DNA of 10,300 nucleotides from a virus. The DNA is taken from the UHGV virus genome UHGV-0365264; one strand, given 5' to 3'. Made by a program: the position numbers and the translations under genes. The first letter of the stretch is position 1. Every line of letters starts with the position of its first letter. A model generated the notes under the pieces. The model was not told the DNA's origin and did no database searches. It saw only the letters and a list, made by a program, of their open reading frames with translations. Below, one piece after another: positions 1-10,300 of this stretch.

Positions 1-285
1 TAGTGGTTTACCGCTGGCGCTTTTACCCTGTCCCTGCCGGATGAATAACAGATTGCCATTTTTCACCGACGCAATAGCACCGTACTGGCGCGCCAGCCGC
101 ATCAGAAAACTGCCGTCACTCTCATTGGTCTGGTCTATATGTTCCACGGGTTTATCTGACAGGTCTTTACCCAATGCCATCTTCAGTTTGTGCCGCACAG
201 CTATTTCCTTCACCACTTTCCCGACGGTGGTCTTGTGCCACGACTTTTCACGGCGGGTACAGTAGCTGCACGACTCACCATCGCT
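1..285 (-). pseudogene. D: Fragment of P2 gpD-like tail protein (late control gene D family); N-terminal part missing, C-terminal part continues beyond window start
   Basis: Minus-strand translation reads ...RREKSWHKTTVGKVVKEIAVRHKLKMALGKDLSDKPVEHIDQTNESDGSFLMRLARQYGAIASVKNGNLLFIRQGQGKSASGKPL, which matches the central region of P2 gpD as I recall it (RREESWH...HIDQSQESD..FL.RLA...SVK.G.LLF.R.GQG..ASGK). An in-frame TGA at 286-288 lies 9 codons upstream of the first matching residues, and no gpD N-terminal sequence is seen in any frame. Confidence 0.5.
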
Positions 286-563
286 TCACCGCCTTTTGCG
301 GGAAGCGCCAAAGGATGCAACGGTGGAAGCTCTGCTGGCGCGGCAGCAACCCCCATCATTCCGGCGACAACGGCAGCCAGTGCAGCTGTATTTCTCCGGC
401 TGGTCACGTTTGCCGGGCCGTTAACAATTTCCGGCCCGTTTTCACCGACGATGCCAAACTGCCCGCGCGGGATATAGCCGCCGCTGTCATACATCCCCGC
501 AAAGCCATATCCCCATGACGGAAAATCACCCGATGGCATCATCACTTTACCGTCTGCATTCAT
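210..563 (-). pseudogene. Tail tape measure protein C-terminal fragment (gpT-like remnant)
   Basis: Frame open from 615 to the TGA at 210-212. It contains GYGFAGMYDSGGYIPRGQFGIVGENGPEIVNGPANVTS, a Gly-rich segment with a VGE.GPE-type motif typical of tape measure C-termini. Only about 100 aa are present, overlapping the 3' end of the M-like ORF and the 5' edge of the gpD-like fragment in other frames. Confidence 0.4.
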
Positions 564-954
564 CCGCCATTTCTTCCGCCAGAACGGTCTGCACGTTACG
601 GTTGCCCAGCGGCATCACCCAGCCATGGCGCAGCGCATGACGCCCGATTTCCAGCGCACCGGCATAATCACCGGCGTCGATACGCCACAGCATCACGTAC
701 ATCAGCACGTCATCCTGCTGCGCACCTCCGGCAGCCAGCACGCCCTCCGCCCAGGCGGCATACTTCGGCAGAAGCTCCACCTTGATTGCCGCCTTTTTCA
801 CGGTGGACTGGATACCCTTAAGGCGGCGGCGGTCTTCTGCCAGCTGCAGCAGCATCAGGTCATAGCCGGACGCATGGCGAACACTGCCGCCCTCCCGGGC
901 GGCCTGTTCGGCCTGAATGCGCAGGCGGTGCTGCCGTGCGGGACTCAGGCTCAT
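547..954 (-). CDS. M: Terminase small (endonuclease) subunit, gpM-like; apparently C-terminally truncated (135 aa versus about 247 aa in P2)
   Basis: Position immediately downstream of the capsid gene in O-N-M order. Start is preceded by GAGGAG with a 6-nt spacer. N-terminal region is Arg/Ala-rich like the gpM family. ORF ends at TAA 547-549, where tape-measure-like sequence begins in another frame. Confidence 0.65.
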   Translation of the reverse strand: MSLSPARQHRLRIQAEQAAREGGSVRHASGYDLMLLQLAEDRRRLKGIQSTVKKAAIKVELLPKYAAWAEGVLAAGGAQQDDVLMYVMLWRIDAGDYAGALEIGRHALRHGWVMPLGNRNVQTVLAEEMADECRR

Positions 955-957
955 GCG

Positions 958-2052
958 TTACTCCTCAGTTTCTGTTTCGGCGGGTTCTTCCACAGGCGCA
1001 GACTGCACCGCAGCTGGCTCGCTGAAGTCACCGATAGTGATGTTTTCGACCAAGGCCGCGCAGCGGTAGTCTTCAATCACATACGCTTCGTTGACGGATT
1101 CGAAGTTCTCAATCCGGTCACGTTTCGGGTTGTCGATAACAGAACGGCGGCGGGTGTCCTCCTGCCAGTAGATGGACAGGTTATCCAGACGGGTGATCAG
1201 CAGGGCATTAGCCGGGAAGAACGGCGCACGCACCGCCTGCAGGCCGCCCATGCGTTTCTGGCTGATAATCAGATCGGCGGCGATTTTCTCGCTGTTTTCC
1301 TGCTCTTTGTTAACCAGCGGGAAATACTTATCGGACAGCAACTCGCGGCTGCAGATAACAACCAGCTCATCATCATCCTGATACACCACGTCGATCAGCT
1401 CGTTAACCGCATCCATCACCACGGCGTCCAGGTTGGTATAGTCGCCGCCCTTGCCCACCTTTACCGCGCCTGCGGTGGTGGTGCCGTCCTGGGTGGTGCT
1501 GCCCATAACGTGGTCCGGCGCGTCTTCGCGGATTTTCTGCAGCCAGCCCTTATTCACGTCCTGCAGCAGCGGGTTTTCTGCGCGGTTGGAGGTTTTGGCG
1601 CGCTTCACTCCGTTAAAGCCGATCATAATGCGGTCCAGCGCCTGGCGCTTGACAATGGCGTTACGGATACGCACCTGGAAGTCCTGAAATTTCGCCCACA
1701 GGTCCAGCTTTGCGTAGGTCAGCACCGTGTCAAAGTTGGTCTGTTCGCATTTATATTCCACGTCCTCCATCAGCATCGGATCGGTAGGTTCGCGCTCTTT
1801 GGTGGTGGTGTCGGTGGTTCCGGCAATGGTGGAGCCAACGCCCAGGCCAAGCAACTGGCCGGACTGTTCCGCAACCGGCGTGATGTTAATCAGCGTCAGA
1901 AAAGCGGCGGACTGCTGGATCTGGTCTTCCAGCGTCTGCTGCACGGACGGGTCCACGGTGAACTTGCTGGAAAGTTCTTCCACTTCCACGTTGTTCAGGC
2001 GTGCCAGCTGCTGCAGGTAGGCGTTAAAGGCAAAGCGGGTATTCTTTTTCAT
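958..2052 (-). CDS. N: Major capsid protein, P2 gpN family
   Basis: 364-aa ORF. N-terminus MKKNTRFAFNAYLQQLARLNN...KFTVDPSVQQTLE and internal KGGDYTNLDAVVMDA, VICSRELLSDKYFPLVNKEQENSEKIAADLIISQKRMG and LITRLDNLSIYWQ are colinear with P2 gpN as recalled. AGGAG lies upstream of the ATG. Confidence 0.93.
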   Translation of the reverse strand: MKKNTRFAFNAYLQQLARLNNVEVEELSSKFTVDPSVQQTLEDQIQQSAAFLTLINITPVAEQSGQLLGLGVGSTIAGTTDTTTKEREPTDPMLMEDVEYKCEQTNFDTVLTYAKLDLWAKFQDFQVRIRNAIVKRQALDRIMIGFNGVKRAKTSNRAENPLLQDVNKGWLQKIREDAPDHVMGSTTQDGTTTAGAVKVGKGGDYTNLDAVVMDAVNELIDVVYQDDDELVVICSRELLSDKYFPLVNKEQENSEKIAADLIISQKRMGGLQAVRAPFFPANALLITRLDNLSIYWQEDTRRRSVIDNPKRDRIENFESVNEAYVIEDYRCAALVENITIGDFSEPAAVQSAPVEEPAETETEE

Positions 2053-2068
2053 CGGGTTTTATGCTCCT

Positions 2069-2902
2069 TCAGCAATTGGTCAGGGTGCCTGCCGGTGCGT
2101 CACCGCCCGGCGCGCGCTGGCGGTAATCTTTACGACTGTCTTCACGGCTCAGCTGCTGGTGAAGCTCGGCAAAGGCGGCCTGCTGCTCCTGCAGCGAGGA
2201 TTCAAGCTCAGAAATGCGCGCGTCCTGGTCGGACAGGGATTTATCAGTGCGCTCGCTCAGGTTCTGCTGCTCGGTGGCGACCAGCTCAACGGCTTTGTGC
2301 ACGTCTGAGAAACGCGCATCATCGGTCTGCTCTTTTTTGGTGAACAGGGCGGTGACGCGGGCAAAGAGGGACGGCTTTTCGTCCTGGGTTTCTTCCAGTT
2401 CGATCAGCGTTTCTTCGGCGGCGGTAAACAGGTTTTCAGGACTCTGCTTGCGGTTTGCCAGCGGGTTGTGCGCGGCGCTGGCGCTGAAGGTCAGCATCTC
2501 AGTGCCCAGGCTCGCCGGATCGTCAGTGGCGGCCAGGCCCACAAGGTAGGCTTTGCCGGTGTCGGCAAACTTCGGGCTGACTTCCATGGAGGTGAAAAGC
2601 TTCTGGCCTTTCTTGACCAGTTCAACCAGTGCGCTGGTCGGCTCCACGTCGGCATACAGCGCCATCTTGCCCTTCAGGGGGCCATCCTGAATTTCTTCAG
2701 CAACCAGCGCCGTCACCCTGCCGTAGCGGTTGAAGGTGCTTTCCGGCAGATATGACTTGATGTGCTCAAGGTTAATCAGGGCGGTGTAGACCTCCGGGTT
2801 GTAGCTGGCCGCCATCTGCTCCAGCCATTCGCGCTGGATTTCGCGTCCGTCGGTGGTGGCACCTTCCACCCCAATGCGGAAACGCTTTGTTTTCACTGTC
2901 AT
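2069..2902 (-). CDS. O: Capsid scaffolding protein, P2 gpO family
   Basis: 277-aa ORF directly upstream of N on the same strand, with an acidic, coiled-coil-rich C-terminal half. GGAG lies 8 nt upstream of the ATG. Position is that of P2 O, transcribed divergently from P. Confidence 0.88.
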   Translation of the reverse strand: MTVKTKRFRIGVEGATTDGREIQREWLEQMAASYNPEVYTALINLEHIKSYLPESTFNRYGRVTALVAEEIQDGPLKGKMALYADVEPTSALVELVKKGQKLFTSMEVSPKFADTGKAYLVGLAATDDPASLGTEMLTFSASAAHNPLANRKQSPENLFTAAEETLIELEETQDEKPSLFARVTALFTKKEQTDDARFSDVHKAVELVATEQQNLSERTDKSLSDQDARISELESSLQEQQAAFAELHQQLSREDSRKDYRQRAPGGDAPAGTLTNC

Positions 2903-3041
2903 GCCGTGCTCCGTTAGAAATTACTTACTTGAGCCTTATGTTTGCGGTGATGGGGGAGTGAAACAACGCGCGGCGCTTGTACGGTCAGCCACACAAACCG
3001 CAGCCGGGGAAAGCCGCGGGGCAAGGCCGTATGTTTGGGCC
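2903..3041. promoter_or_regulatory. Divergent late promoter region between O and P, with a TGT-N12-ACA element (2978-2995) of the Ogr/Delta activator type
   Basis: 139-bp intergenic region between divergent O and P starts. tgtacggtcagccacaca at 2978-2995 fits TGT-N12-ACA. Its centre is about 85 bp upstream of the O start codon, compatible with a -55 activator site for leftward transcription. Confidence 0.35.
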
Positions 3042-4808
3042 ATGAACACGACAATGACCCCCGCAGACCTCGATCCCCGTCGGCAGGCCATGCTGCTGTA
3101 CTTTCAGGGATACCGCGTAGCCCGCATTGCAGAAATGCTGGGCGAGAAAGTTGCAACCGTTCACAGCTGGAAGAAGCGCGACAAGTGGGGCGAGTATGGG
3201 CCGCTGGATCAGATGCAGCTCACCACCGCCGCGCGCTACTGCCAGCTCATTATGAAGGAGCAGAAAGAAGGGAAAGACTTCAAGGAAATTGACCTGCTGG
3301 CGCGCCAGTCAGAGCGCCACGCCCGGATCGGTAAATTTAACGATGGCGGCAACGAGGCAGATTTAAATCCGAAGGTTGCCAACCGCAACAAAGGCCCGCG
3401 CCGCAAGCCCGAAAAGAACGTTTTTACCGACGAACAGATCGAGAAGCTGCAGGAGGTTTTCCACGGCTCGATGTTCGCCTACCAGCGCCACTGGTACGAG
3501 GCAGGCAACCGCCACCGTATCCGCAACTTGCTCAAATCGCGCCAGATCGGGGCGACCTTCTTTTTTGCCCGGGAGGCGCTGATTGACGCCATCACCACCG
3601 GCCGCAACCAGATTTTTCTTTCAGCCAGCAAGGCACAGGCGCACGTCTTCAAGCAGTACATCATCGACTTTGCAAAAGAGGTGGATGTGGAGCTGAAGGG
3701 CGACCCGATGACGCTCAGCAACGGCGCGTGCCTGTACTTCCTCGGCACCAACGCCCGCACGGCGCAGAGCTACCACGGCAACCTGTACCTGGATGAATAT
3801 TTCTGGATACCGAAATTCCAGGAGCTGCGCAAGGTGGCCTCCGGCATGGCCATTCACAAGAAATGGCGGCAGACCTACTTCTCCACGCCGTCCAGCCTGA
3901 CCCACAGCGCCTATCCGTTCTGGTCCGGCGCCCTGTTCAACCGGGGCCGCGCCAAAGCGGACAAGGTGGATATTGACCTGACCCACGGCAATCTGGCCCC
4001 GGGCCTGCTTTGCCCGGACGGCCAGTACCGCCAGATCGTCACCGTGGAGGATGCGGTGCGCGGCGGCTGTAACCTGTTCGATCTGGATCAGCTGCGGATG
4101 GAGTACAGCCCGGACGAATACCAGAACCTGCTGATGTGCGAATTCATTGACGATCTGGCGTCAGTGTTCCCGCTGAGCGAGCTGCAGGCGTGCATGGTGG
4201 ACAGCTGGGAAGTCTGGTCAGATTTTCAGGCGCTGGCGCTGCGCCCGTTTGGCTGGCGTGAAGTCTGGATCGGCTATGACCCGGCGAAAGGTACGCAGAA
4301 CGGCGACAGCGCCGGATGCGTGGTGGTGGCACCACCCACAGTGCCGGGCGGCAAGTTCCGCATTCTGGAGCGGCACCAGTGGCGCGGGATGGACTTCCGC
4401 GCCCAGGCTGACGCCATTAAAAAGCTGACCCAGCAATATAACGTGACCTATATCGGCATCGACTCGACCGGCGTCGGCCACGGCGTCTATGAGAACGTTA
4501 AGGCGTTCTTCCCTGCCGTGCGCGAATTCGTTTACAACCCCAACGTTAAAAACGCCCTGGTGCTCAAGGCATACGACATTATCAGCCACCGGCGCCTGGA
4601 GTTTGACGCCGGGCACACCGACATTGCGCAGTCCTTTATGGCAATCCGCCGCACCACTACCGCCAGCGGCAACCGCCCCACCTACGAAGCCAGCCGCAGC
4701 GAAGAAGCCAGCCATGCAGATCTGGCCTGGGCAACGATGCACGCACTGTTTAACGAACCGCTGCAGGGCGAAGCCGCCAATACCAGCAACATTGTGGAGA
4801 TTTTTTGA
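3042..4808 (+). CDS. P: Terminase large (ATPase) subunit, P2 gpP family
   Basis: Long ORF whose N-terminus MNTTMTPADLDPRRQAMLLYFQGYRVARIAEMLGE is gpP-like. It has Walker-type and nuclease-like segments and is the first gene of a P-Q operon as in P2. Start chosen at ATG 3042 rather than the upstream in-frame ATG 2853, which would overlap O; no strong SD, so the start is uncertain. Confidence 0.88.
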   Translation: MNTTMTPADLDPRRQAMLLYFQGYRVARIAEMLGEKVATVHSWKKRDKWGEYGPLDQMQLTTAARYCQLIMKEQKEGKDFKEIDLLARQSERHARIGKFNDGGNEADLNPKVANRNKGPRRKPEKNVFTDEQIEKLQEVFHGSMFAYQRHWYEAGNRHRIRNLLKSRQIGATFFFAREALIDAITTGRNQIFLSASKAQAHVFKQYIIDFAKEVDVELKGDPMTLSNGACLYFLGTNARTAQSYHGNLYLDEYFWIPKFQELRKVASGMAIHKKWRQTYFSTPSSLTHSAYPFWSGALFNRGRAKADKVDIDLTHGNLAPGLLCPDGQYRQIVTVEDAVRGGCNLFDLDQLRMEYSPDEYQNLLMCEFIDDLASVFPLSELQACMVDSWEVWSDFQALALRPFGWREVWIGYDPAKGTQNGDSAGCVVVAPPTVPGGKFRILERHQWRGMDFRAQADAIKKLTQQYNVTYIGIDSTGVGHGVYENVKAFFPAVREFVYNPNVKNALVLKAYDIISHRRLEFDAGHTDIAQSFMAIRRTTTASGNRPTYEASRSEEASHADLAWATMHALFNEPLQGEAANTSNIVEIF

Positions 4809-5833
4809 TGGGCAAGAGGAATAAAAACCGCGCTGCAGCTAAACAGAACGTTCAACAGAGCAGCGGCATATCTGCAGAAGCATTCAGCTTTGGCGACCCG
4901 ATCCCGGTACTGGACCGCCGGGAATTGCTGGATTATGTGGAGTGCGTGCAGATGGACCGCTGGTATGAGCCGCCGGTGAGTTTTGACGGGCTGGCGCGCA
5001 CCTACCGCGCCGCCGTGCATCACAGCTCACCGATTGCCGTTAAGCGTGACATTCTCAGCAGCACCTATATCCCGCACCGCCTGCTCAGCCAGCAGGCTTT
5101 TTCCCGTTTCGTTCAGGACTATCTGGTATTCGGCAATGCCTACCTTGAGAAACGCACCAACCGGCTCGGTGGCGTTCTCTCGCTGGAGCCCGCCCTGGCG
5201 AAATATACCCGCCGCGGCGTTGACCTGGACACTTACTGGTTTGTGCAGTACGGATTCACCACGCAGCCCTACGAATTCACGCCGGGAAGCATTTTCCATC
5301 TTCTTGAACCTGATATTAACCAGGAAATATACGGGCTGCCCGGCTACCTCTCAGCCATTCCGTCCGCGCTGCTCAACGAGTCCGCCACGCTGTTTCGCCG
5401 CAAATATTATATTAACGGCAGCCATGCGGGCTTTATCATGTACATGACCGACGCCGCGCAGAACCAGGAGGACGTAAACAACATCCGCCAGGCCATGAAA
5501 AGCGCCAAGGGCCCGGGCAACTTCCGCAACCTGTTCATGTACTCTCCCAACGGCAAAAAAGACGGGATCCAGATCATCCCGCTGTCAGAGGTGGCGGCGA
5601 AAGATGAATTTCTGAATATCAAGAATGTGAGCCGCGATGACATGATGGCTGCGCACCGCGTACCGCCGCAGATGATGGGGATTATGCCAAATAATGTCGG
5701 GGGTTTTGGGGATGTAGAAAAAGCGAGTAAAGTTTTTGTTCGAAATGAGCTCTATCCATTGCAGAAAAAACTAAGAGAGCTTAACACTTGGCTTGGAGAA
5801 GAAATCATTAAGTTTGACGAATACATTTTATAA
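4808..5833 (+). CDS. Q: Portal protein, P2 gpQ family
   Basis: N-terminus MGKRNKNRAAAKQNVQQSSGISAEAFSFGDPIPVLDRRELLDYVEC and later segments (FHLLEPDINQEIYGLPGYLSA, ATLFRRKYYINGSHAGFIMY, IIPLSEVAAKDEF, KVFVRNELYPLQ) are colinear with P2 gpQ as recalled. ATG 4808 overlaps the P stop TGA 4806-4808. Confidence 0.9.
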   Translation: MGKRNKNRAAAKQNVQQSSGISAEAFSFGDPIPVLDRRELLDYVECVQMDRWYEPPVSFDGLARTYRAAVHHSSPIAVKRDILSSTYIPHRLLSQQAFSRFVQDYLVFGNAYLEKRTNRLGGVLSLEPALAKYTRRGVDLDTYWFVQYGFTTQPYEFTPGSIFHLLEPDINQEIYGLPGYLSAIPSALLNESATLFRRKYYINGSHAGFIMYMTDAAQNQEDVNNIRQAMKSAKGPGNFRNLFMYSPNGKKDGIQIIPLSEVAAKDEFLNIKNVSRDDMMAAHRVPPQMMGIMPNNVGGFGDVEKASKVFVRNELYPLQKKLRELNTWLGEEIIKFDEYIL

Positions 5834-5839
5834 AAGAAT

Positions 5840-5863
5840 AGGCCGCAGAAAGCGGCCTTTATT
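5840..5863. terminator. Bidirectional rho-independent terminator between convergent Q and the 454-aa cargo gene
   Basis: aggccgc-agaaa-gcggcct stem-loop followed by TTTATT on the plus strand and a T-rich tract on the minus strand. It lies between the Q stop (5833) and the cargo gene stop (5878). Confidence 0.55.
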
Positions 5864-5877
5864 ATTCCCCAAAAGTA

Positions 5878-7242
5878 TTATTCTTCTTCATCATGTACAA
5901 CTTTTTTTTCGGGAATATCTTCATTTATCTTCTTCGTTCTTGTCAGTCCCGCCTTTCCCAGAACAGCATCCATTTTATCACCACCTTTTTCCACCAAACT
6001 TTTGAAACCATCAGAGGATAACATTTCCATTATTGGAGATGAATGAGCGGTTTCCTCAACGAATCTCAACGGTGGCTCTTCAAGTCGAGTAAGTGCATTG
6101 CCAAAAAGACGCTGTGAGAAATCAGAGTCTAATTGCATCGCTTCTCTACGATAACCTTCATAGGCTTTAGAAACGCTAGCTTTGAATTCATAATCTTCGG
6201 CCAATCTGAATCGTTGACCAATTTGCTTAGTAGCTAACCAAGCAAACCAAAGCGGGGCACCTACACTGAGAATCGATAAGATAAGCTGTATGGTTAGTTT
6301 GATACCAGAGGCATTAGGATTCGATAAGTATGCCTCCAGAGCATGCAATCGAGTATAACCAACAACGGCTCCAGCCCCAAGGGCTGCGATTAAGCCTGCT
6401 ACCCATAGCCTGATACTGGCGTTAAGTTTTCTTGCTTTATCTTCAAAAGCTCCAGCTAAACCTTTAGATGTCGTTGTTCTAAAGGCCTCCTCACATTTAT
6501 CGATATATCCTTGAGCTTCAACCTTAAGTTCAGCCAAATAATCGTTAGCTTCTTTCGCTACATTTTTATGTAATTGTGCAATCGTATTTTTTATGTCATT
6601 TAACTCTTTACCATCAAGCTTTGCCTGTTCTAATCTTTCATTGATTGAATCAGCATTTTTCTCTGAAAGTTCATTTAATTGATTAATTTCCTCATTTGTC
6701 TCCCTAAGAGATTTTAAGGTTGTGGGTAAACTCTCTGCAGCATCATAAGCTTCATTGATTACATTTATCTTGCTATCGAGGTCACCACTTTTCTCCTCAA
6801 TAGTTTGAAGATTAGATTGATACAAACCTAGTCTGTTTATTATTTTTTTTGGAAGAAGTTCTTTGTTATTTAAAACTTCAAACGAAAATAGCTCATTTAT
6901 TTCCGTACTTATATAAAGCATAGAAACAAAATACGATGCAATGGCTGGCCCCGATACATTAGTATTGCTGTGGTTTAAATGGTTTAAATTGGGTTGTGCT
7001 TTATCTAACGAATAAATTATAGAATCTATAATTTCAACGTCATGTTCAGAAGGTTCAAACTTAGTCATCTTGCCTATCTTTTCAGATAGCATTTTCGGGA
7101 AAGATACTAAATCTTCTGAATGTAAGAAGGGATATTGATAATTGTTAACATCAATAAAATCTTGCTGTGGAAAACTTATTGCACTAATAGTGGTATGTAA
7201 ATTATCCAGTTTTTCTTTTAGTTGGTTCAACTTTTCATTCAT
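5878..7242 (-). CDS. Hypothetical cargo protein, 454 aa: coiled-coil N-terminal and central region, two predicted transmembrane helices, about 100-aa acidic C-terminal tail
   Basis: Long ORF in markedly AT-rich DNA. The two hydrophobic helices are LWVAGLIAALGAGAVVGY and IKLTIQLILSILSVGAPLWFAWLA. Heptad-like Lys/Glu/Leu/Asn-rich stretches precede them. A possible promoter (TTGTAA, 18-nt spacer, TACAGT) lies upstream. Confidence 0.7.
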   Translation of the reverse strand: MNEKLNQLKEKLDNLHTTISAISFPQQDFIDVNNYQYPFLHSEDLVSFPKMLSEKIGKMTKFEPSEHDVEIIDSIIYSLDKAQPNLNHLNHSNTNVSGPAIASYFVSMLYISTEINELFSFEVLNNKELLPKKIINRLGLYQSNLQTIEEKSGDLDSKINVINEAYDAAESLPTTLKSLRETNEEINQLNELSEKNADSINERLEQAKLDGKELNDIKNTIAQLHKNVAKEANDYLAELKVEAQGYIDKCEEAFRTTTSKGLAGAFEDKARKLNASIRLWVAGLIAALGAGAVVGYTRLHALEAYLSNPNASGIKLTIQLILSILSVGAPLWFAWLATKQIGQRFRLAEDYEFKASVSKAYEGYRREAMQLDSDFSQRLFGNALTRLEEPPLRFVEETAHSSPIMEMLSSDGFKSLVEKGGDKMDAVLGKAGLTRTKKINEDIPEKKVVHDEEE

Positions 7243-7325
7243 GGCTTCGCCTTTGATTACTGTATGTAAAAGATAAACGTCCTTACAATATCACACTCAT
7301 GACAACTATCAGAGGGTAAGCGCGC

Positions 7326-7347
7326 GCTCGTATCCCCGCCACGCCTG
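7326..7347 (-). other. Candidate cos (cohesive end) site, P2-like
   Basis: The reverse complement of 7327-7345 is GGCGTGGCGGGGATACGAG, matching the recalled P2/P4 cohesive end GGCGAGGCGGGGAAAGCAC at 14 of 19 positions. It sits in a GC-rich island inside AT-rich cargo, in the A-to-Q interval where P2 cos lies. Confidence 0.3.
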
Positions 7348-7394
7348 CCCGCTTTATGTAGTGGTTTTCATGCAGGTGCATGATCTACGCAAAA

Positions 7395-7414
7395 GCCCGC
7401 CAGTTCTGGCGGGC
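7395..7414 (-). terminator. GC-rich hairpin followed by a T-run on the minus strand (terminator-like)
   Basis: gcccgcca-gttc-tggcgggc stem-loop. On the minus strand it is followed by TTTTGCG. Confidence 0.4.
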
Positions 7415-7687
7415 CTTAGCAAAAACGATCCTCAAACGATCATGCAATCTCATGCAGCATAGACATGCACAGACGAGTAAAGCGAATCGGACCTTACGCA
7501 AGGTGAACTCCTCAGCGGGCATAATCAGTATGTCGGAAGATCTCTAAAAATAAATAATTCGGTTAACAGGTATGCTTACAAAAGCATATATTTGATTAAA
7601 AATCATGTAAGGGGGAGGATCTCAAACTGAATCGCCACGGGTTTTACAAATTTCGATAGTCTCTCTAACGTTTCGGCTGAGGTCAAA

Positions 7688-8113
7688 ATGAAAAGCTTTT
7701 ACGTATTAATTTTAATTCTGGTTGCAAGCTTTGTTAGCGTCCCAGTTCAGGCGGTAACAGCTAAAAACTATGAGAAAGGAACTAAAGCTCAACAGAAATC
7801 AATATCTTACCTTTCATGTGCATTCTATGGCAGTAGCACACAATTAGATCCTAGCTACACGGAGCAAGTACCTACAGCCGATATCAAGATATTACAGAAA
7901 GCAGCTTACCACGCTTACAACGATGCGCTCTCATACTTTGGCTATGAGGAACCAGATCACGAACAACGCATAATTGATTATGCTGAATTTGTGGCGTCGC
8001 AAGAAGCTGTGTTATGGGATAAGCCGGGAATGAATGGAAAGCAGGTAACACTAATTGCTCGTTCTCTCTACAATGAGAGTAACTGTAACTTGTTACTGGA
8101 CTCAATTAAGTAG
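7688..8113 (+). CDS. Hypothetical secreted or periplasmic protein, 141 aa, with N-terminal signal peptide
   Basis: MKSFYVLILILVASFVSVPVQA|VTA has the n-h-c organisation of a signal peptide with an AxA-type cleavage site. GAGG lies 7 nt upstream of the ATG. AT-rich codon usage like the neighbouring cargo gene. Two Cys in the mature part. Confidence 0.7.
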   Translation: MKSFYVLILILVASFVSVPVQAVTAKNYEKGTKAQQKSISYLSCAFYGSSTQLDPSYTEQVPTADIKILQKAAYHAYNDALSYFGYEEPDHEQRIIDYAEFVASQEAVLWDKPGMNGKQVTLIARSLYNESNCNLLLDSIK

Positions 8114-8272
8114 GAAAAAGATGGTATTTTGCCCGTAGTTTCAACCTTAATCTCCGAACCTGTCGCAGAACGGGCGTTCACTCATCAAATAAACGCCACA
8201 CCTAACGCCTCACTGTACTCGTTGTTCAACCTTGCTGACGCCAGAACCAAGTTCAGACGCCAGCAACTTTTC

Positions 8273-8506
8273 TTAATGCAGCCAGCTGTCGTCTTCCCAC
8301 ACCTTCTGCATAATCTTCATCACTTGTTTTCTTTCTTCGTCCAGTTGCAGTCCGGTCAGTTCCACACCGTTAGAGCTACCTTTGCGGATGCGAATTACCA
8401 TTTTGGGATACAGGGGGCGCAGATTGCGGTAAAGCTCGGATTCAAGGGCGTCCAGGGTAGACTGGCTAATCTTCTGCTCTTTATCGATCATTATTTCAAT
8501 GCGCAT
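8273..8506 (-). CDS. DinI-family protein (DNA-damage-inducible protein I-like; possible Tum C-terminal-type module)
   Basis: MRIEIMIDKEQKISQSTLDALESELYRNLRPLYPKMVIRIRKGSSNGVELTGLQLDEERKQVMKIMQKVWEDDSWLH aligns along its length with E. coli DinI as recalled (MRIEVTIAK...ALAGELSRR...QETWESADDW). GAGGTG RBS upstream. Start taken at internal ATG 8504-8506 rather than the track start at 8578. Confidence 0.8.
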   Translation of the reverse strand: MRIEIMIDKEQKISQSTLDALESELYRNLRPLYPKMVIRIRKGSSNGVELTGLQLDEERKQVMKIMQKVWEDDSWLH

Positions 8507-8516
8507 AAAGGTCACC

Positions 8517-8705
8517 TCAGCTGATGACATCCATTGAGCGGTTGTATTCGTGGGTTCTGATTTTTGCCATGAGTTCATCAGTCAATTCAGAAACCCACTG
8601 CAGAGCCAGCCCCTTCTCTTCATCACTACACTCACTAGCCGCTACAAGCTTAAGAAAAAAATCAATGCGCTGGAGCTTCAAAGACTCCAAAAAATAGTCC
8701 TGCAT
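8517..8705 (-). CDS. Small hypothetical protein (62 aa), first gene of the LexA-box operon; possible antirepressor (Tum N-terminal-like) module
   Basis: AGGAGG lies 5 nt upstream of the ATG. Its TGA stop overlaps the RBS of the DinI-like gene, suggesting translational coupling. Sits immediately downstream of the LexA box. Confidence 0.6.
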   Translation of the reverse strand: MQDYFLESLKLQRIDFFLKLVAASECSDEEKGLALQWVSELTDELMAKIRTHEYNRSMDVIS

Positions 8706-8745
8706 CTTTCCTCCTATGACACCAAAGTAATACTGTATATATAAC

Positions 8746-8765
8746 CACTGTTTATATTTACAGTA
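8746..8765 (-). promoter_or_regulatory. LexA (SOS) box, with a second degenerate box overlapping at 8733-8748, in the promoter of the minus-strand operon
   Basis: cACTGTttatatttACAGTA is a perfect CTGT-N8-ACAG core with consensus-like flanks. The adjacent tACTGTatatataaCCAC has one good half-site. Candidate -35 TTTACA and a TA-rich -10 on the minus strand overlap or abut the boxes. Confidence 0.65.
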
Positions 8766-8857
8766 TATAATAATCTTACTGATGTAAAACGTTTTTTTAC
8801 GTTCATCAGCCTGATATGCCTGGTATTATTAAGAGCACGAATTGTTAACCCGCGTAA

Positions 8858-10300
8858 TTAATACAGGTTCCGCCACTTATCATCTTCCTGCAAACGCTGG
8901 TTCCGATAGAAGATACGCAGGCCTGCTCCTGACGGAATACTGCCGCCGCGAAGGAGTAAATCGACCTCTTTCTCGCTGCCATCAAATCCTCTGGACTTCA
9001 GTTCATAGACGAGCTGCTGTCGCTGATGGTCTGTAATTCGCTGTTTGTAGTCTTTACGCCGTTTCGGTTTCACCAGGCGTAACCTTGCAGCCAGTTCCCG
9101 GCGCTCTTTTTTGCTCATACTGTGCAAGTAATCGTGCAACTCCTTGTCATCCATGCGGGTAATGTCCGTTCTGGTGTCCCCATCAGCTGATTTATCTTTC
9201 TCCTGTTGGTTCAAATTTTCAGCAAGGGGACAGTTATTGCCACGAGTCCAAGGGGACAGTTATTGCCACGAGTCCAAGGGGCGCAAGCGCCCTGGTCGGC
9301 TGCCGCCTCCTGAACGTCAACGGCCTTACGAACCATTTTCCACTTCACTACATGAGTGCAGATCTTGCCCTCTGCAATGGGTGACCAGATGCCATAAATA
9401 CGAATACCGTGATCACCATAGGCGGTCGGCTCTTCGTTGATTTCATAAGCGGTTCTGATCAAGTGATATTTGCGGGGAACCAACACGCCGCCCTGCTTCA
9501 TAATGTAGGTGGCAAAACAGCCAGCATCAGCAGCAGCCAGAATGGCATCAAGACGCGGATCATCCAGTACCGGCGCACCTGCTTTTTTGTCACCCTGCTG
9601 CCTTGCCGCCTGACCAGCCAGCAATCGCAGTTCACGGTAAGCCTGACGCCCCGGAATGCCAAAGAAGCGGAATTGCTGAACACGATGCAGAGACGCCCAG
9701 GCATTAACGTATTCAGCGTTATCACGCAGGGATTTACCCGTTTCCTTGCTGATCTCGCCAGCCAGACCACGCCCGTCAATGTTCTTACTGATGTATTTCG
9801 CGATGTAGCTTGTCGGCGTTCCTTTGCGCGGGTTAATCAGCTCAGACTTAAAGCGTGGCCCCGTGTTATTGCCCAGTTCCTCGCGGTCTTCACGGATGGC
9901 AAACTTACGCAGTAATGCAGTGATGGCGCGGCGGTCTTTTTTACGCATGAAGCACATGAGATGCCAGTGCACAGTACCGTCATGATGCGGCTCAGCCACC
10001 CGCACGCCATACCACCGCAATCCGGCTTTGTGCATCGCCTTACGAAATGCAGCAAACATGCCGACCAGATAATCACTGCTTTGTCTTACCGTCGCATTTG
10101 TCCAGGTCGGGTTTGGTCTGCCGTTATTGAGCGTGGAATGGAAACGTGACGGACAGGTGATGGTGTAGAAAACGGCGCAGTCACCGCGCATTTCCGCGAT
10201 AAGCTCCAGACCTTTAACGCAGGCCATCATCTCATTGCGGCGATGTGCCGGGTTGCTGCTGCTGGCGTTTACCACATCTTCCATATCCAGCGTGTCTCCG
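8858..10300 (-). pseudogene. A: Rolling-circle replication initiator, P2 gpA family, split by a +26-bp tandem duplication; 5' end lies beyond the window
   Basis: All three RCR motifs are present: FYTITCP (motif 1), TVHWHLMCF (HUH) and SYIAKYISK (paired catalytic Tyr). The reading frame ends at TGA 9211-9213 just after the duplicated 26-mer. Removing one 26-bp copy joins this frame exactly to the downstream 118-codon ORF (8858-9214). Confidence 0.7.
9223..9281. repeat. Tandem direct repeat, 26 bp x 2 plus a 7-bp partial third copy
   Basis: caaggggacagttattgccacgagtc occurs at 9223-9248 and again identically at 9249-9274, followed by caagggg at 9275-9281. Confidence 0.95.

What the first reader, a model, noticed from the sequence alone, without database searches (positions are those of the whole stretch)
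8858..10300. Replication initiator gene A is split by an exact 26-bp tandem duplication
With two copies of the 26-mer, the A frame reads ...[29 protein letters not shown] and stops. With one copy it would read ...[26 protein letters not shown]... and continue through the whole 118-codon downstream ORF to the stop at 8858. The repeat length (26, not a multiple of 3) and the exact frame restoration show the two ORFs are one gene interrupted by a duplication. This leaves a truncated initiator carrying all three catalytic motifs plus an orphan C-terminal ORF, so the prophage is probably replication-defective. Alternatively this is a slippage-prone switch or a sequencing or assembly artefact.
Basis: seen in the sequence. 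Interest (0 to 1): 0.65.

Follow-up and report, generated by a model that had tools for sequence, protein, structure and literature searches.

The report
Phage replication gene broken at its origin
The replication-initiator gene of a decayed P2/186-like prophage in E. coli is knocked out by an exact 26-base tandem duplication that sits exactly on the phage's own replication-origin nick site, and the same duplication has arisen independently many times, so the origin is a mutational hotspot rather than a one-off accident.

Summary
An exact 26-bp tandem duplication (9230-9281, plus a third copy of its first 7 bases at 9223-9229) frameshifts gene A. Removing one copy restores the reading frame of the intact 804-aa protein carried by about 1,260 complete E. 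coli genomes. It starts at the position homologous to the nick annotated in P2 and 186 (CTCG|GAG; here CCCCTTG|GACTC). It runs through the conserved core CAATAACTGT to a second CCCCTTG. The same duplication occurs in 8 complete E. coli genomes, all annotated "frameshifted", including the otherwise complete prophage of strain S88. It also occurs in 6 IMG/VR contigs, plus one triplication, on at least 11 flanking haplotypes, each closer to a one-copy allele than to another duplicated allele. Twelve comparable microhomology pairs in the same gene give no duplications, and the reciprocal deletion is never seen. A second repeat (GACTCG, 2 to 5 copies, in frame) begins at the same nick. This is therefore a real, recurrent, origin-associated duplication that makes an A pseudogene. 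It is most likely linked to nicking or priming at ori, though plain slippage is not excluded. The host prophage is already a deletion remnant. Interest is moderate.

The parts
9211..10300 (-). Gene A (P2/186-family HUH rolling-circle replication initiator). This is the part from the window edge to the premature TGA at 9211-9213 created by the frameshift. It holds the HUH motif ([11 protein letters not shown]) and the two-tyrosine motif (YIAKYISKN).
   Evidence: ORF list. Translation. Pfam PF05840 Phage_GPA, E=8.8e-85. Alignment to P2 A.
9256..9281 (-). Copy 1 of the 26-nt unit, CCCCTTG|GACTCGTGGCAATAACTGT. This is the complete origin copy: it keeps the upstream GC hairpin, and the predicted nick lies between G9275 and G9274.
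   Evidence: TRF. Homology to the annotated nick sites of P2 (29892) and 186 (28576). Alignment.
9230..9255 (-). Copy 2 of the 26-nt unit, an exact duplicate. It lacks the hairpin on its 5' side. The second predicted nick position lies between G9249 and G9248.
9223..9229 (-). Third CCCCTTG. In the one-copy allele this is the second CCCCTTG, 26 nt downstream of the one that precedes the nick. It provides the 7-nt microhomology or pseudo half-site that bounds the duplication.
   Evidence: Lineages with CCCCCTG at this position show no 26-bp duplication.
9279..9292 (-). GC-rich inverted repeat GGGCGC-TT-GCGCCC immediately 5' of the nick. A hairpin at the same place occurs in 186 (GGGCGC-TTCT-GCGCCC), P2 (GCGGC-ATC-GCCGC) and another lineage (GGGCGGC-CCT-GCCGCCC). 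Within the family the loop varies (TT, TC, TA, AA).
   Evidence: Read directly from the sequences. The thermodynamic fold of the whole stretch is not better than shuffles.
8858..9214 (-). C-terminal ~120 codons of gene A, now out of frame with the N-terminal part. It appears as a 118-codon ORF only because a TTG follows the last in-frame stop. It is not an independent gene.
   Evidence: No Pfam or NCBIfam family. Always fused to A in one-copy relatives.

Best explanation
The window carries the 3' two-thirds of gene A of a 186/P2-like prophage remnant in E. coli. Gene A encodes the HUH nickase that starts rolling-circle replication by cutting the phage origin, and that origin lies inside gene A itself. 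The 26-nt unit that is duplicated is this origin core. It begins at the position homologous to the nick (CCCCTTG|GACTC) and ends at a second CCCCTTG 26 nt downstream. The extra copy shifts the frame, so A is truncated 19 codons later and loses its C-terminal ~120 residues: a pseudogene. The proposed mechanism is as follows. DNA synthesis primed from the A-made nick, or read-through of the regenerated origin at the end of a round, reaches the second CCCCTTG. The new 3' end then looks like the natural 3' end at the nick. It either re-pairs with the first CCCCTTG (nick-stimulated slippage) or is joined by A to the 5' end at the nick (aberrant strand transfer). Both routes give exactly the observed tandem duplication, and a repeat of the process gives the triplication. 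The steps that are shown are the duplication, the frameshift, its coincidence with the origin core by homology, its recurrence, its site specificity, and the absence of the reciprocal deletion. The steps that are inferred are that nicking or priming by A drives it, and that the truncated A is inactive.
For: Exact duplication and frame restoration. Origin assignment: the P2 record places the 'nick site at ori' at 29892, the first G of CTCGGAG. The 186 record places it at 28576, the second G of the same motif. Together these imply CTCG|GAG. The protein and DNA alignments place the window's CCTTG|GACTCGTGGCAATAACTGT on P2's CCTCG|GAGTCCTGTCAATAACTGT. This block is nearly invariant at the nucleotide level across A genes of 78-98% amino-acid identity, and the sequence diverges right after it. 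Recurrence: the junction 45-mer occurs in 8 of 5,426 complete E. coli genomes and 5 IMG/VR contigs. There is also one copy-variant allele and one triplication. On 1,050 nt of flanks, the 13 duplicated or triplicated alleles with enough flanking sequence fall into 11 haplotype groups, each nearer to a one-copy allele than to any other duplicated allele; one further two-copy contig had too little flank to place. One pair differs by 1 nt in 1,050. The window's near-isogenic relative NCTC 13148 has one copy. Site specificity: junction probes for 12 other direct-repeat pairs of at least 7 nt in the same gene hit 0 genomes, against 8 for the origin pair. There were only two 1-nt indel alleles, apart from two poorly aligning loci, in 1,050 nt of flanks across the 106 aligned loci. 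Directionality: the reciprocal 26-bp deletion junction has 0 hits in E. coli, phage records and IMG/VR. Dependence on the second 7-mer: 0 duplications in the 1,229 genomes that share only the core, and 0 of 121 in P2-type origins. A second repeat, GACTCG with 2 to 5 copies, starts at the same nick position in at least 14 E. coli genomes and 10 IMG/VR contigs of several lineages. The prophage of S88 is otherwise complete, and A is its only lesion.
Against: There is no direct evidence that A protein is involved. Ordinary slippage between the two 7-mers gives the identical product. The strand that is nicked, and hence the direction of priming relative to the repeat, could not be verified, because the primary paper is not held. 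The nick position rests on annotation transferred by homology. The window's prophage is a remnant in which expression of A is uncertain, and its differences from NCTC 13148 form a short recombination patch across the origin. The allele could therefore have been imported rather than made in place. The control junction probes were built from one allele, so polymorphism lowers their sensitivity. The absolute numbers are small: 8 genomes, about 5 lineages, in E. coli. The absence from isolated phages (0 of 58) has no statistical power at a frequency of 0.6%.
Confidence: 0.6

Rival explanations
1. Ordinary replication slippage, with no role for origin function. During normal chromosomal replication of the prophage, the nascent strand misaligns between the two GC-rich CCCCTTG 7-mers 26 nt apart, perhaps helped by the adjacent GC hairpin. 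That this is the origin would be coincidental, or relevant only because origin constraints keep both 7-mers conserved.
For: The duplication is bounded by a perfect 7-nt direct repeat. It is absent where the second 7-mer is imperfect or missing. Once duplicated, 26-nt repeats can expand further, as the triplication in L005 shows. In the window it occurs in a prophage remnant that may never express A.
Against: Twelve other direct-repeat pairs of at least 7 nt with similar spacing in the same gene show no duplication in 5,426 genomes. The reciprocal deletion, which slippage should also produce, is never seen. A hexamer duplication with only 1-nt microhomology starts at the same nick position in several lineages.
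Confidence: 0.3
2. A selected, reversible on/off switch. Copy number of the 26-mer would toggle gene A, and hence prophage replication, as a contingency locus. For example, it could silence a dangerous in-situ origin in a defective prophage and allow rare reversion.
For: Alleles with 1, 2 and 3 copies exist among close relatives. The two copies are identical in 13 of the 14 two-copy alleles, which is compatible with recent and possibly reversible events. The two-copy state is stably shared by three clonally related strains, S88, MS7163 and N53.
Against: The two-copy state is rare: 8 genomes against about 1,260 with the one-copy origin. Neither three nor four copies restore the frame, because there is a stop inside the repeat in the shifted frame. 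No within-strain heterogeneity is available. Nothing suggests a function for the off state.
Confidence: 0.05
3. Sequencing or assembly artefact in this genome.
For: Short tandem repeats can be mis-assembled, and the reads for this window were not available.
Against: The identical junction is present in 8 complete genomes from different laboratories and in 5 IMG/VR contigs. At 59 bp the repeat array is far shorter than a read.
Confidence: 0.02

Closest known systems
Bacteriophage P2 gene A protein and its ori inside gene A
   Same: Same Pfam family (Phage_GPA), with the HUH motif and the YxxxY motif. The origin lies within the coding sequence, and the nick core GGA-TC-TG-CAATAACTGT is conserved with a GC hairpin 5' of it.
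   Different: Only 32% amino-acid identity, and homology ends exactly at the origin, so the C-terminal module is unrelated. P2's origin has no second copy of the 5' half-site downstream and shows no length variation in 121 loci.
Coliphage 186 gene A / ori and the SOS-controlled tum operon
   Same: Same gene order (cI-apl-cII-fil ... A, then a LexA-controlled DinI/Tum-like gene), as seen in S88 and in the window. Same hairpin arms, GGGCGC/GCGCCC, 5' of the nick.
   Different: 186 A has 694 aa and reads TCTCG|GAGTTCTGTCAATAACTGTACGG at the origin, without the downstream CCCCTTG. The window type also carries a Dam methylase gene upstream of A.
Errors of termination or re-initiation by rolling-circle initiators: phiX174 protein A with two tyrosines, pT181/pC194-type plasmids, and read-through by IS91, ISCR and Helitron transposases
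   Same: In these systems a Tyr-linked initiator cleaves a regenerated origin and joins the ends. Synthesis runs some nucleotides past the nick before termination. Missed or pseudo termination sites give rearrangements anchored at the nick (reviews read). The 26-bp unit here starts at the nick and ends at a look-alike of the 5' half-site.
   Different: No experiment links A to this duplication. The replicon here is a 30-kb dsDNA prophage, and the product is a 26-bp tandem duplication that destroys the initiator's own gene.
Simple-sequence contingency loci (phase variation by repeat-number change)
   Same: A tandem repeat inside a coding sequence whose copy number (1, 2 or 3) changes the reading frame. 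An in-frame hexamer tract of 1 to 5 copies lies beside it.
   Different: The off state is rare, the unit is long, only one state gives a full-length protein, and there is no evidence of switching within a strain.

Membership tests
P2/186 gpA rolling-circle replication initiators (Pfam PF05840) | Significant match to the Phage_GPA profile | tested here: met
   The window fragment 9214-10299(-) matches with E=8.8e-85 over profile positions 144-321. The intact relative matches with E=3.5e-128 over the full profile.
P2/186 gpA rolling-circle replication initiators (Pfam PF05840) | HUH metal-binding motif and the pair of active-site tyrosines (Y-x3-Y) | tested here: met
   [11 protein letters not shown] and YIAKYISKN are present in the translation and align with the same residues of P2 A. 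That the tyrosines are catalytic is established for P2, as cited in the paper read.
P2/186 gpA rolling-circle replication initiators (Pfam PF05840) | Origin with its nick site inside the gene's own coding sequence | tested here: met
   This is by homology only. The block CCTTGGACTCGTGGCAATAACTGT aligns with the annotated nick regions of P2 and 186.
P2/186 gpA rolling-circle replication initiators (Pfam PF05840) | Uninterrupted full-length reading frame (about 804 aa in this subtype) | tested here: not met
   A +26 frameshift gives a premature stop at 9211-9213. PGAP marks the same allele 'frameshifted'. The gene is therefore a pseudogene member of the family.
P2/186 gpA rolling-circle replication initiators (Pfam PF05840) | Site-specific nicking and joining activity at ori | not testable with these tools
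   Needs biochemistry.
Nick-site-anchored rearrangement of rolling-circle replicons | The rearrangement junction coincides with the initiator's nick | tested here: met
   The junction can be placed at any of 8 positions across CCCCTTG, and the homology-inferred nick (after the final G) is one of them. The hexamer repeat GACTCG starts at the same position.
Nick-site-anchored rearrangement of rolling-circle replicons | The second end lies at a sequence resembling the nick half-site | tested here: met
   The 5' half-site CCCCTTG recurs exactly 26 nt downstream. The hexamer unit ends in ACTCG, which resembles P2's CCTCG. Lineages without the second 7-mer lack the 26-bp duplication.
Nick-site-anchored rearrangement of rolling-circle replicons | Dependence on the active initiator protein | not testable with these tools
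   Needs genetics or biochemistry.
Phase-variable contingency locus | Repeat-number polymorphism among close relatives | tested here: met
   Alleles with 1, 2 and 3 copies were found. The window (2 copies), strain 2547 (1 copy) and GZ2408P (+6) differ by 1% or less in their flanks.
Phase-variable contingency locus | Reversible switching within a strain, with both states in use | not testable with these tools
   No read-level data are available. The off state is present in only 8 genomes against about 1,260 carriers of the one-copy origin, which argues against a maintained switch.
Programmed ribosomal frameshift | Both frames decoded into one product by a -1 or +1 shift at a slippery site | tested here: not met
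   The offset is caused by 26 extra bases that are absent from about 1,260 intact alleles. The frame is restored only by deleting one copy.

The most novel reading that the evidence does not exclude
The initiator protein A itself makes the duplication. After a round of rolling-circle synthesis, or an abortive start, it cleaves or joins at the look-alike half-site CCCCTTG 26 nt past the true nick. This would write a tandem copy of the origin into its own gene and inactivate itself. Genomes carrying this footprint could no longer grow lytically but could still lysogenise, so they would accumulate as otherwise intact, replication-dead prophages such as the one in S88. A supplied from a related phage could resolve two copies back to one. 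The recurrent 26-bp and hexamer repeats would then be natural footprints of HUH-enzyme termination errors in a dsDNA phage, and a built-in route to prophage domestication.
Probability: 0.25. Interest if true: 0.7.

Novelty: new member of a known kind. Interest (0 to 1): 0.45.

Why it matters
On its own, this is one more pseudogene in a decaying prophage. The wider pattern is more useful. The commonest recognisable way in which this large family of E. coli P2/186-like prophages loses its replication gene appears to be a precise duplication of the origin nick site. The family's one-copy origin is present in about a quarter of complete E. coli genomes. The duplication recurs on many genetic backgrounds and has no reciprocal deletion. 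This gives a natural, sequence-level read-out of what happens at a rolling-circle origin in vivo. It points to a minimal 5' half-site (C-T-Y-G before the nick) that can be tested with oligonucleotides. It gives annotators a simple diagnostic for replication-dead but otherwise intact P2-like prophages. It also flags that the origin is the boundary at which the C-terminal module of A is exchanged between lineages.

Tried and rejected
- GTDB representative genomes have no copy of the junction 45-mer, so the window's source is not among the species representatives.
- Folding the origin strand as DNA gave an energy no better than shuffled sequence (z = 0.09). The hairpin is supported only by its conservation across lineages.
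- The primary paper mapping the P2 nick (Liu and Haggard-Ljungquist 1994, PMC332061) is not held. Six literature searches found no description of origin-site duplications in P2-like phages.
- Pfam and NCBIfam find nothing in the C-terminal 118 residues, so the function lost by truncation is unknown.
- I considered whether further copies could restore the frame. Three copies still frameshift, and four copies meet a stop inside the repeat.
- I considered using the absence of the two-copy allele from isolated phages as evidence of lethality. With 58 one-copy phage records and a 0.6% prophage frequency, the expected count is below one, so this is uninformative.
- I considered that the 118-codon ORF might be an independent conserved gene. 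This is rejected, because it is always fused to A in one-copy relatives.
- I considered spread of a single duplication by recombination. This is unlikely to explain every case, because the haplotypes within 100-200 nt on either side differ between duplicated alleles. It cannot be excluded for the window itself, which differs from NCTC 13148 by a short patch across the origin.

Full report
**1. The observation**

The minus strand of 8858-10300 encodes the C-terminal two-thirds of a P2/186-family replication initiator. The fragment matches Pfam Phage_GPA with E=8.8e-85. Tandem Repeats Finder finds a single strong array in the window, at 9223-9281, with period 26, 2.3 copies and 100% identity.

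Read on the coding strand, the array is gcgc[CCCCTTGGACTCGTGGCAATAACTGT]x2 CCCCTTGctgaaaat. It is therefore a 26-nt unit bounded by a 7-nt direct repeat.

With two copies the frame ends ...[17 protein letters not shown] at 9211-9213. With one copy it runs on through 121 further codons to the stop at 8858. Every statement of fact in the finding is correct.

**2. Source and context**

The window is E. coli DNA. Positions 863-5711 are 99.98% identical to a prophage of strain NCTC 13148 (NZ_OZ510750), and positions 5703-10300 are 99.3% identical.

The annotation of that relative, together with Pfam hits on the window ORFs, gives this gene order for the window:
- a gpD fragment (1-259);
- a tape-measure fragment (252-566);
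- a small-terminase fragment (547-954);
- capsid (958-2052);
- scaffold (2069-2902);
- terminase ATPase;
- portal (to 5833);
- two cargo ORFs;
- a DinI/Tum-like gene;
- a 62-codon ORF;
- gene A.

All tail, baseplate and lysis genes are missing. The element is a deletion remnant whatever the state of A.

NCTC 13148 carries a one-copy, intact 804-aa A gene. Apart from the 26-bp gap, 7 of the 9 substitutions between the two sequences lie at 9127-9350, and 6 of them fall within about 100 nt of the repeat. They correspond to a haplotype that exists elsewhere in the population. The window therefore differs from its near-twin by a short recombination patch across this site, plus the duplication.

**3. 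What the repeat is**

The P2 reference record annotates the "nick site at ori" at 29892, inside gene A, in ...GCGCCTC[G]GAGTCCTGTCAATAACTGT.... The 186 record places its origin on the second G of the same CTCGGAG motif. Taken together, the two annotations put the nick at CTCG|GAG.

Protein alignment puts P2 A ...APRSPVNNC(626) on ...APWTRGNNC(681) of the window-type protein. The DNA aligns as CCTCG|GAGTCCTGTCAATAACTGT against CCTTG|GACTCGTGGCAATAACTGT.

The 26-nt unit therefore starts, within its 7-nt junction ambiguity, at the inferred nick. It spans the whole conserved core 3' of the nick. This predicts nicks at 9275|9274 in copy 1 and 9249|9248 in copy 2.

Three further points support an origin here:
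- The block from the hairpin to ...ACTGTCCCC is almost invariant at the nucleotide level in 80 A genes of 78-98% protein identity, and the sequence diverges immediately after it.
- A GC hairpin sits 4-6 nt 5' of the nick in every lineage. Its arms differ between lineages (GGGCGC/GCGCCC, GGGCGGC/GCCGCCC, GCGGC/GCCGC) and its loop is free to vary.
- Homology between P2 A and this A stops exactly at this point, as expected if the nick is a module boundary.

A published comparison also states that the P2 origin lies inside gene A.

**4. It is a recurrent allele, not a private accident**

A 45-mer that can only match the duplication junction hits 8 of 5,426 complete E. coli genomes. It also hits 5 IMG/VR contigs. 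It hits no phage record and no GTDB representative genome. The annotations of seven of the eight E. coli genomes were fetched, and all seven call the gene "frameshifted"; the eighth is the sister isolate of one of these.

It returned 3 two-copy alleles and 2 alleles with a 6-bp duplication.

On 1,050 nt of flanking sequence, the 13 duplicated or triplicated alleles with enough flank fall into 11 groups. Each is closer to a one-copy allele (1-46 differences) than to any other duplicated allele. Only S88, MS7163 and N53 are identical to one another. Haplotypes within 200 nt of the site also differ between duplicated alleles.

Strain 19KM1863 (two copies) differs from a one-copy contig at 1 position in 1,050. 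About 1,260 E. coli genomes carry the one-copy origin with both 7-mers, so the two-copy allele has a frequency of about 0.6%. In S88 the prophage is otherwise complete, from int/cI to ogr.

**5. It is site-specific and one-directional**

- Gene A contains 12 other direct-repeat pairs of at least 7 nt with a period of 60 or less. A concatenated set of junction probes for hypothetical duplications at all 13 pairs hit only the origin pair, in 8 genomes against 0 for the rest. The caveat is that the probes derive from one allele.
- In the flank alignment of 106 loci, the only other indels, apart from two poorly aligning loci, are two singleton 1-nt deletions.
- The reciprocal 26-bp deletion junction is absent from E. 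coli, phage records and IMG/VR.
- Origins lacking a perfect second 7-mer show no 26-bp duplication. This holds for 121 of 121 P2-type loci and for the 1,229 E. coli genomes that share only the core.
- A second tandem repeat begins at the same position. GGACTC/GACTCG occurs 2, 3, 4 or 5 times. It is in frame (W(TR)nG) and annotated as intact. It is found in at least 14 E. coli genomes and 10 IMG/VR contigs, including lineages with unrelated flanks whose normal state is one copy.

**6. Mechanism**

Two things are shown. The origin nick region of this phage subtype is a hotspot for tandem duplication. The 26-bp event needs the downstream copy of the 5' half-site.

The following is inferred. The 3' end made by A (...CCCCTTG-OH) is extended. 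After 26 nt it again ends in CCCCTTG. It then either slips back onto the first 7-mer's complement or is joined by A to the 5' end held at the nick. Read-through of a regenerated origin to the look-alike site at termination gives the same product.

After 6 nt the end is ...ACTCG, which resembles P2's own CCTCG half-site. C-T-Y-G occurs only at +6 and +26 in the 40 nt after the nick, matching the two observed unit lengths. Reviews of rolling-circle systems describe synthesis running past the nick before termination, two-tyrosine initiators, and frequent read-through of termination sites by related transposases.

Plain slippage during chromosomal replication remains a serious rival. It yields the same sequence, and the window's remnant may not express A. 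The site specificity, the missing deletions and the hexamer repeat argue against it, but they do not exclude it. I could not verify which strand is nicked.

**7. Consequence**

The truncated product keeps the GPA domain and the catalytic motifs but loses about 120 C-terminal residues of unknown function. Whether it is inactive is not known.

The one-copy origin occurs in 58 phage records and the two-copy origin in none, but this comparison has no statistical power. Neither three nor four copies restore the frame, so only reversion to one copy would repair the gene.

**8. Comparison and novelty**

The gene is a pseudogenised member of the P2/186 gpA family, and NCBI's annotation pipeline already flags the allele as frameshifted. 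What I did not find described is that the lesion is a duplication of the origin nick core and that it recurs independently.

In kind, it belongs with nick-site-anchored rearrangements known from other rolling-circle replicons. I therefore rate it a new member of a known kind, of moderate interest.

The most novel reading still open is that A writes the duplication itself and thereby disables itself, leaving intact but replication-dead prophages. I give that reading a probability of about 0.25.

Noticed in passing
window 9270-9275 (homologous site); L135 1217-1246, L136 1217-1240, L137, L003, L259-L266: The hexamer GGACTC/GACTCG at the inferred nick is expanded to 2, 3, 4 or 5 tandem copies in other E. 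coli prophages and IMG/VR contigs. The expansion is in frame (W(TR)nG) and the genes are annotated as intact. It occurs in several lineages with unrelated flanks.
   Followed up: partly
window 1-954 versus L134 3501-5591: The prophage is a deletion remnant: a gpD fragment (1-259) is joined to a tape-measure fragment (252-566), which is joined to a small-terminase fragment (547-954). The near-identical prophage of NCTC 13148 has different deletion joints, with more tape measure and less terminase. The two remnants therefore lost their tail and lysis genes by at least partly separate deletions.
   Followed up: partly
window 5703-5711; L134 10349-11115: NCTC 13148 has an IS1 inserted in the portal gene, and the 9 bases 5703-5711 appear on both sides of it (a target-site duplication). 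The window has the uninterrupted portal gene.
   Followed up: no
window 9127-9350: Seven of the nine substitutions separating the window from NCTC 13148 cluster here, immediately around the origin. They match a haplotype found in other prophages, so this is a short recombination patch spanning the origin and the duplication.
   Followed up: partly
window 9222/9223 boundary; P2 residue 626 aligned with residue 681 of the 804-aa protein: Homology between P2 A and this A ends exactly at the origin. Within the window-type family the DNA also diverges right after ...AATAACTGTCCCC. The nick site is therefore a module boundary at which different C-terminal domains of A are attached.
   Followed up: partly
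window 8748-8763 (-), upstream of ORFs 8517-8705 (-) and 8273-8578 (-): A consensus LexA box, CTGT-N8-ACAG, lies in an AT-rich promoter-like stretch just downstream of gene A. It precedes a 62-codon ORF and a DinI-family gene (Pfam E=1e-22). This layout matches the SOS-controlled p95/tum operon annotated in phage 186.
   Followed up: no
window 5878-7242 (-) and 7688-8113 (+): Two cargo ORFs lie between the portal gene and the Tum-like gene, a position reported to be a variable hotspot for anti-phage genes in P2-like phages. The 454-aa protein gives only weak matches of a coiled-coil kind to PADLOC models (LmuB 5e-6, LeoBC 4e-5). The 141-aa protein has no family.
   Followed up: partly
L123 (IMG/VR), origin region: This two-copy allele has copies that differ at one base (AATAACTAT, then AATAACTGT). 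One-copy alleles with ACTAT also exist (L285). The allele is either an older duplication or an unequal exchange between two different alleles.
   Followed up: no
L005 (IMGVR_UViG_3300029508_000048), origin region: This allele has three tandem copies of the 26-mer, in a lineage about 13% divergent from the window in its flanks. It is also frameshifted.
   Followed up: partly
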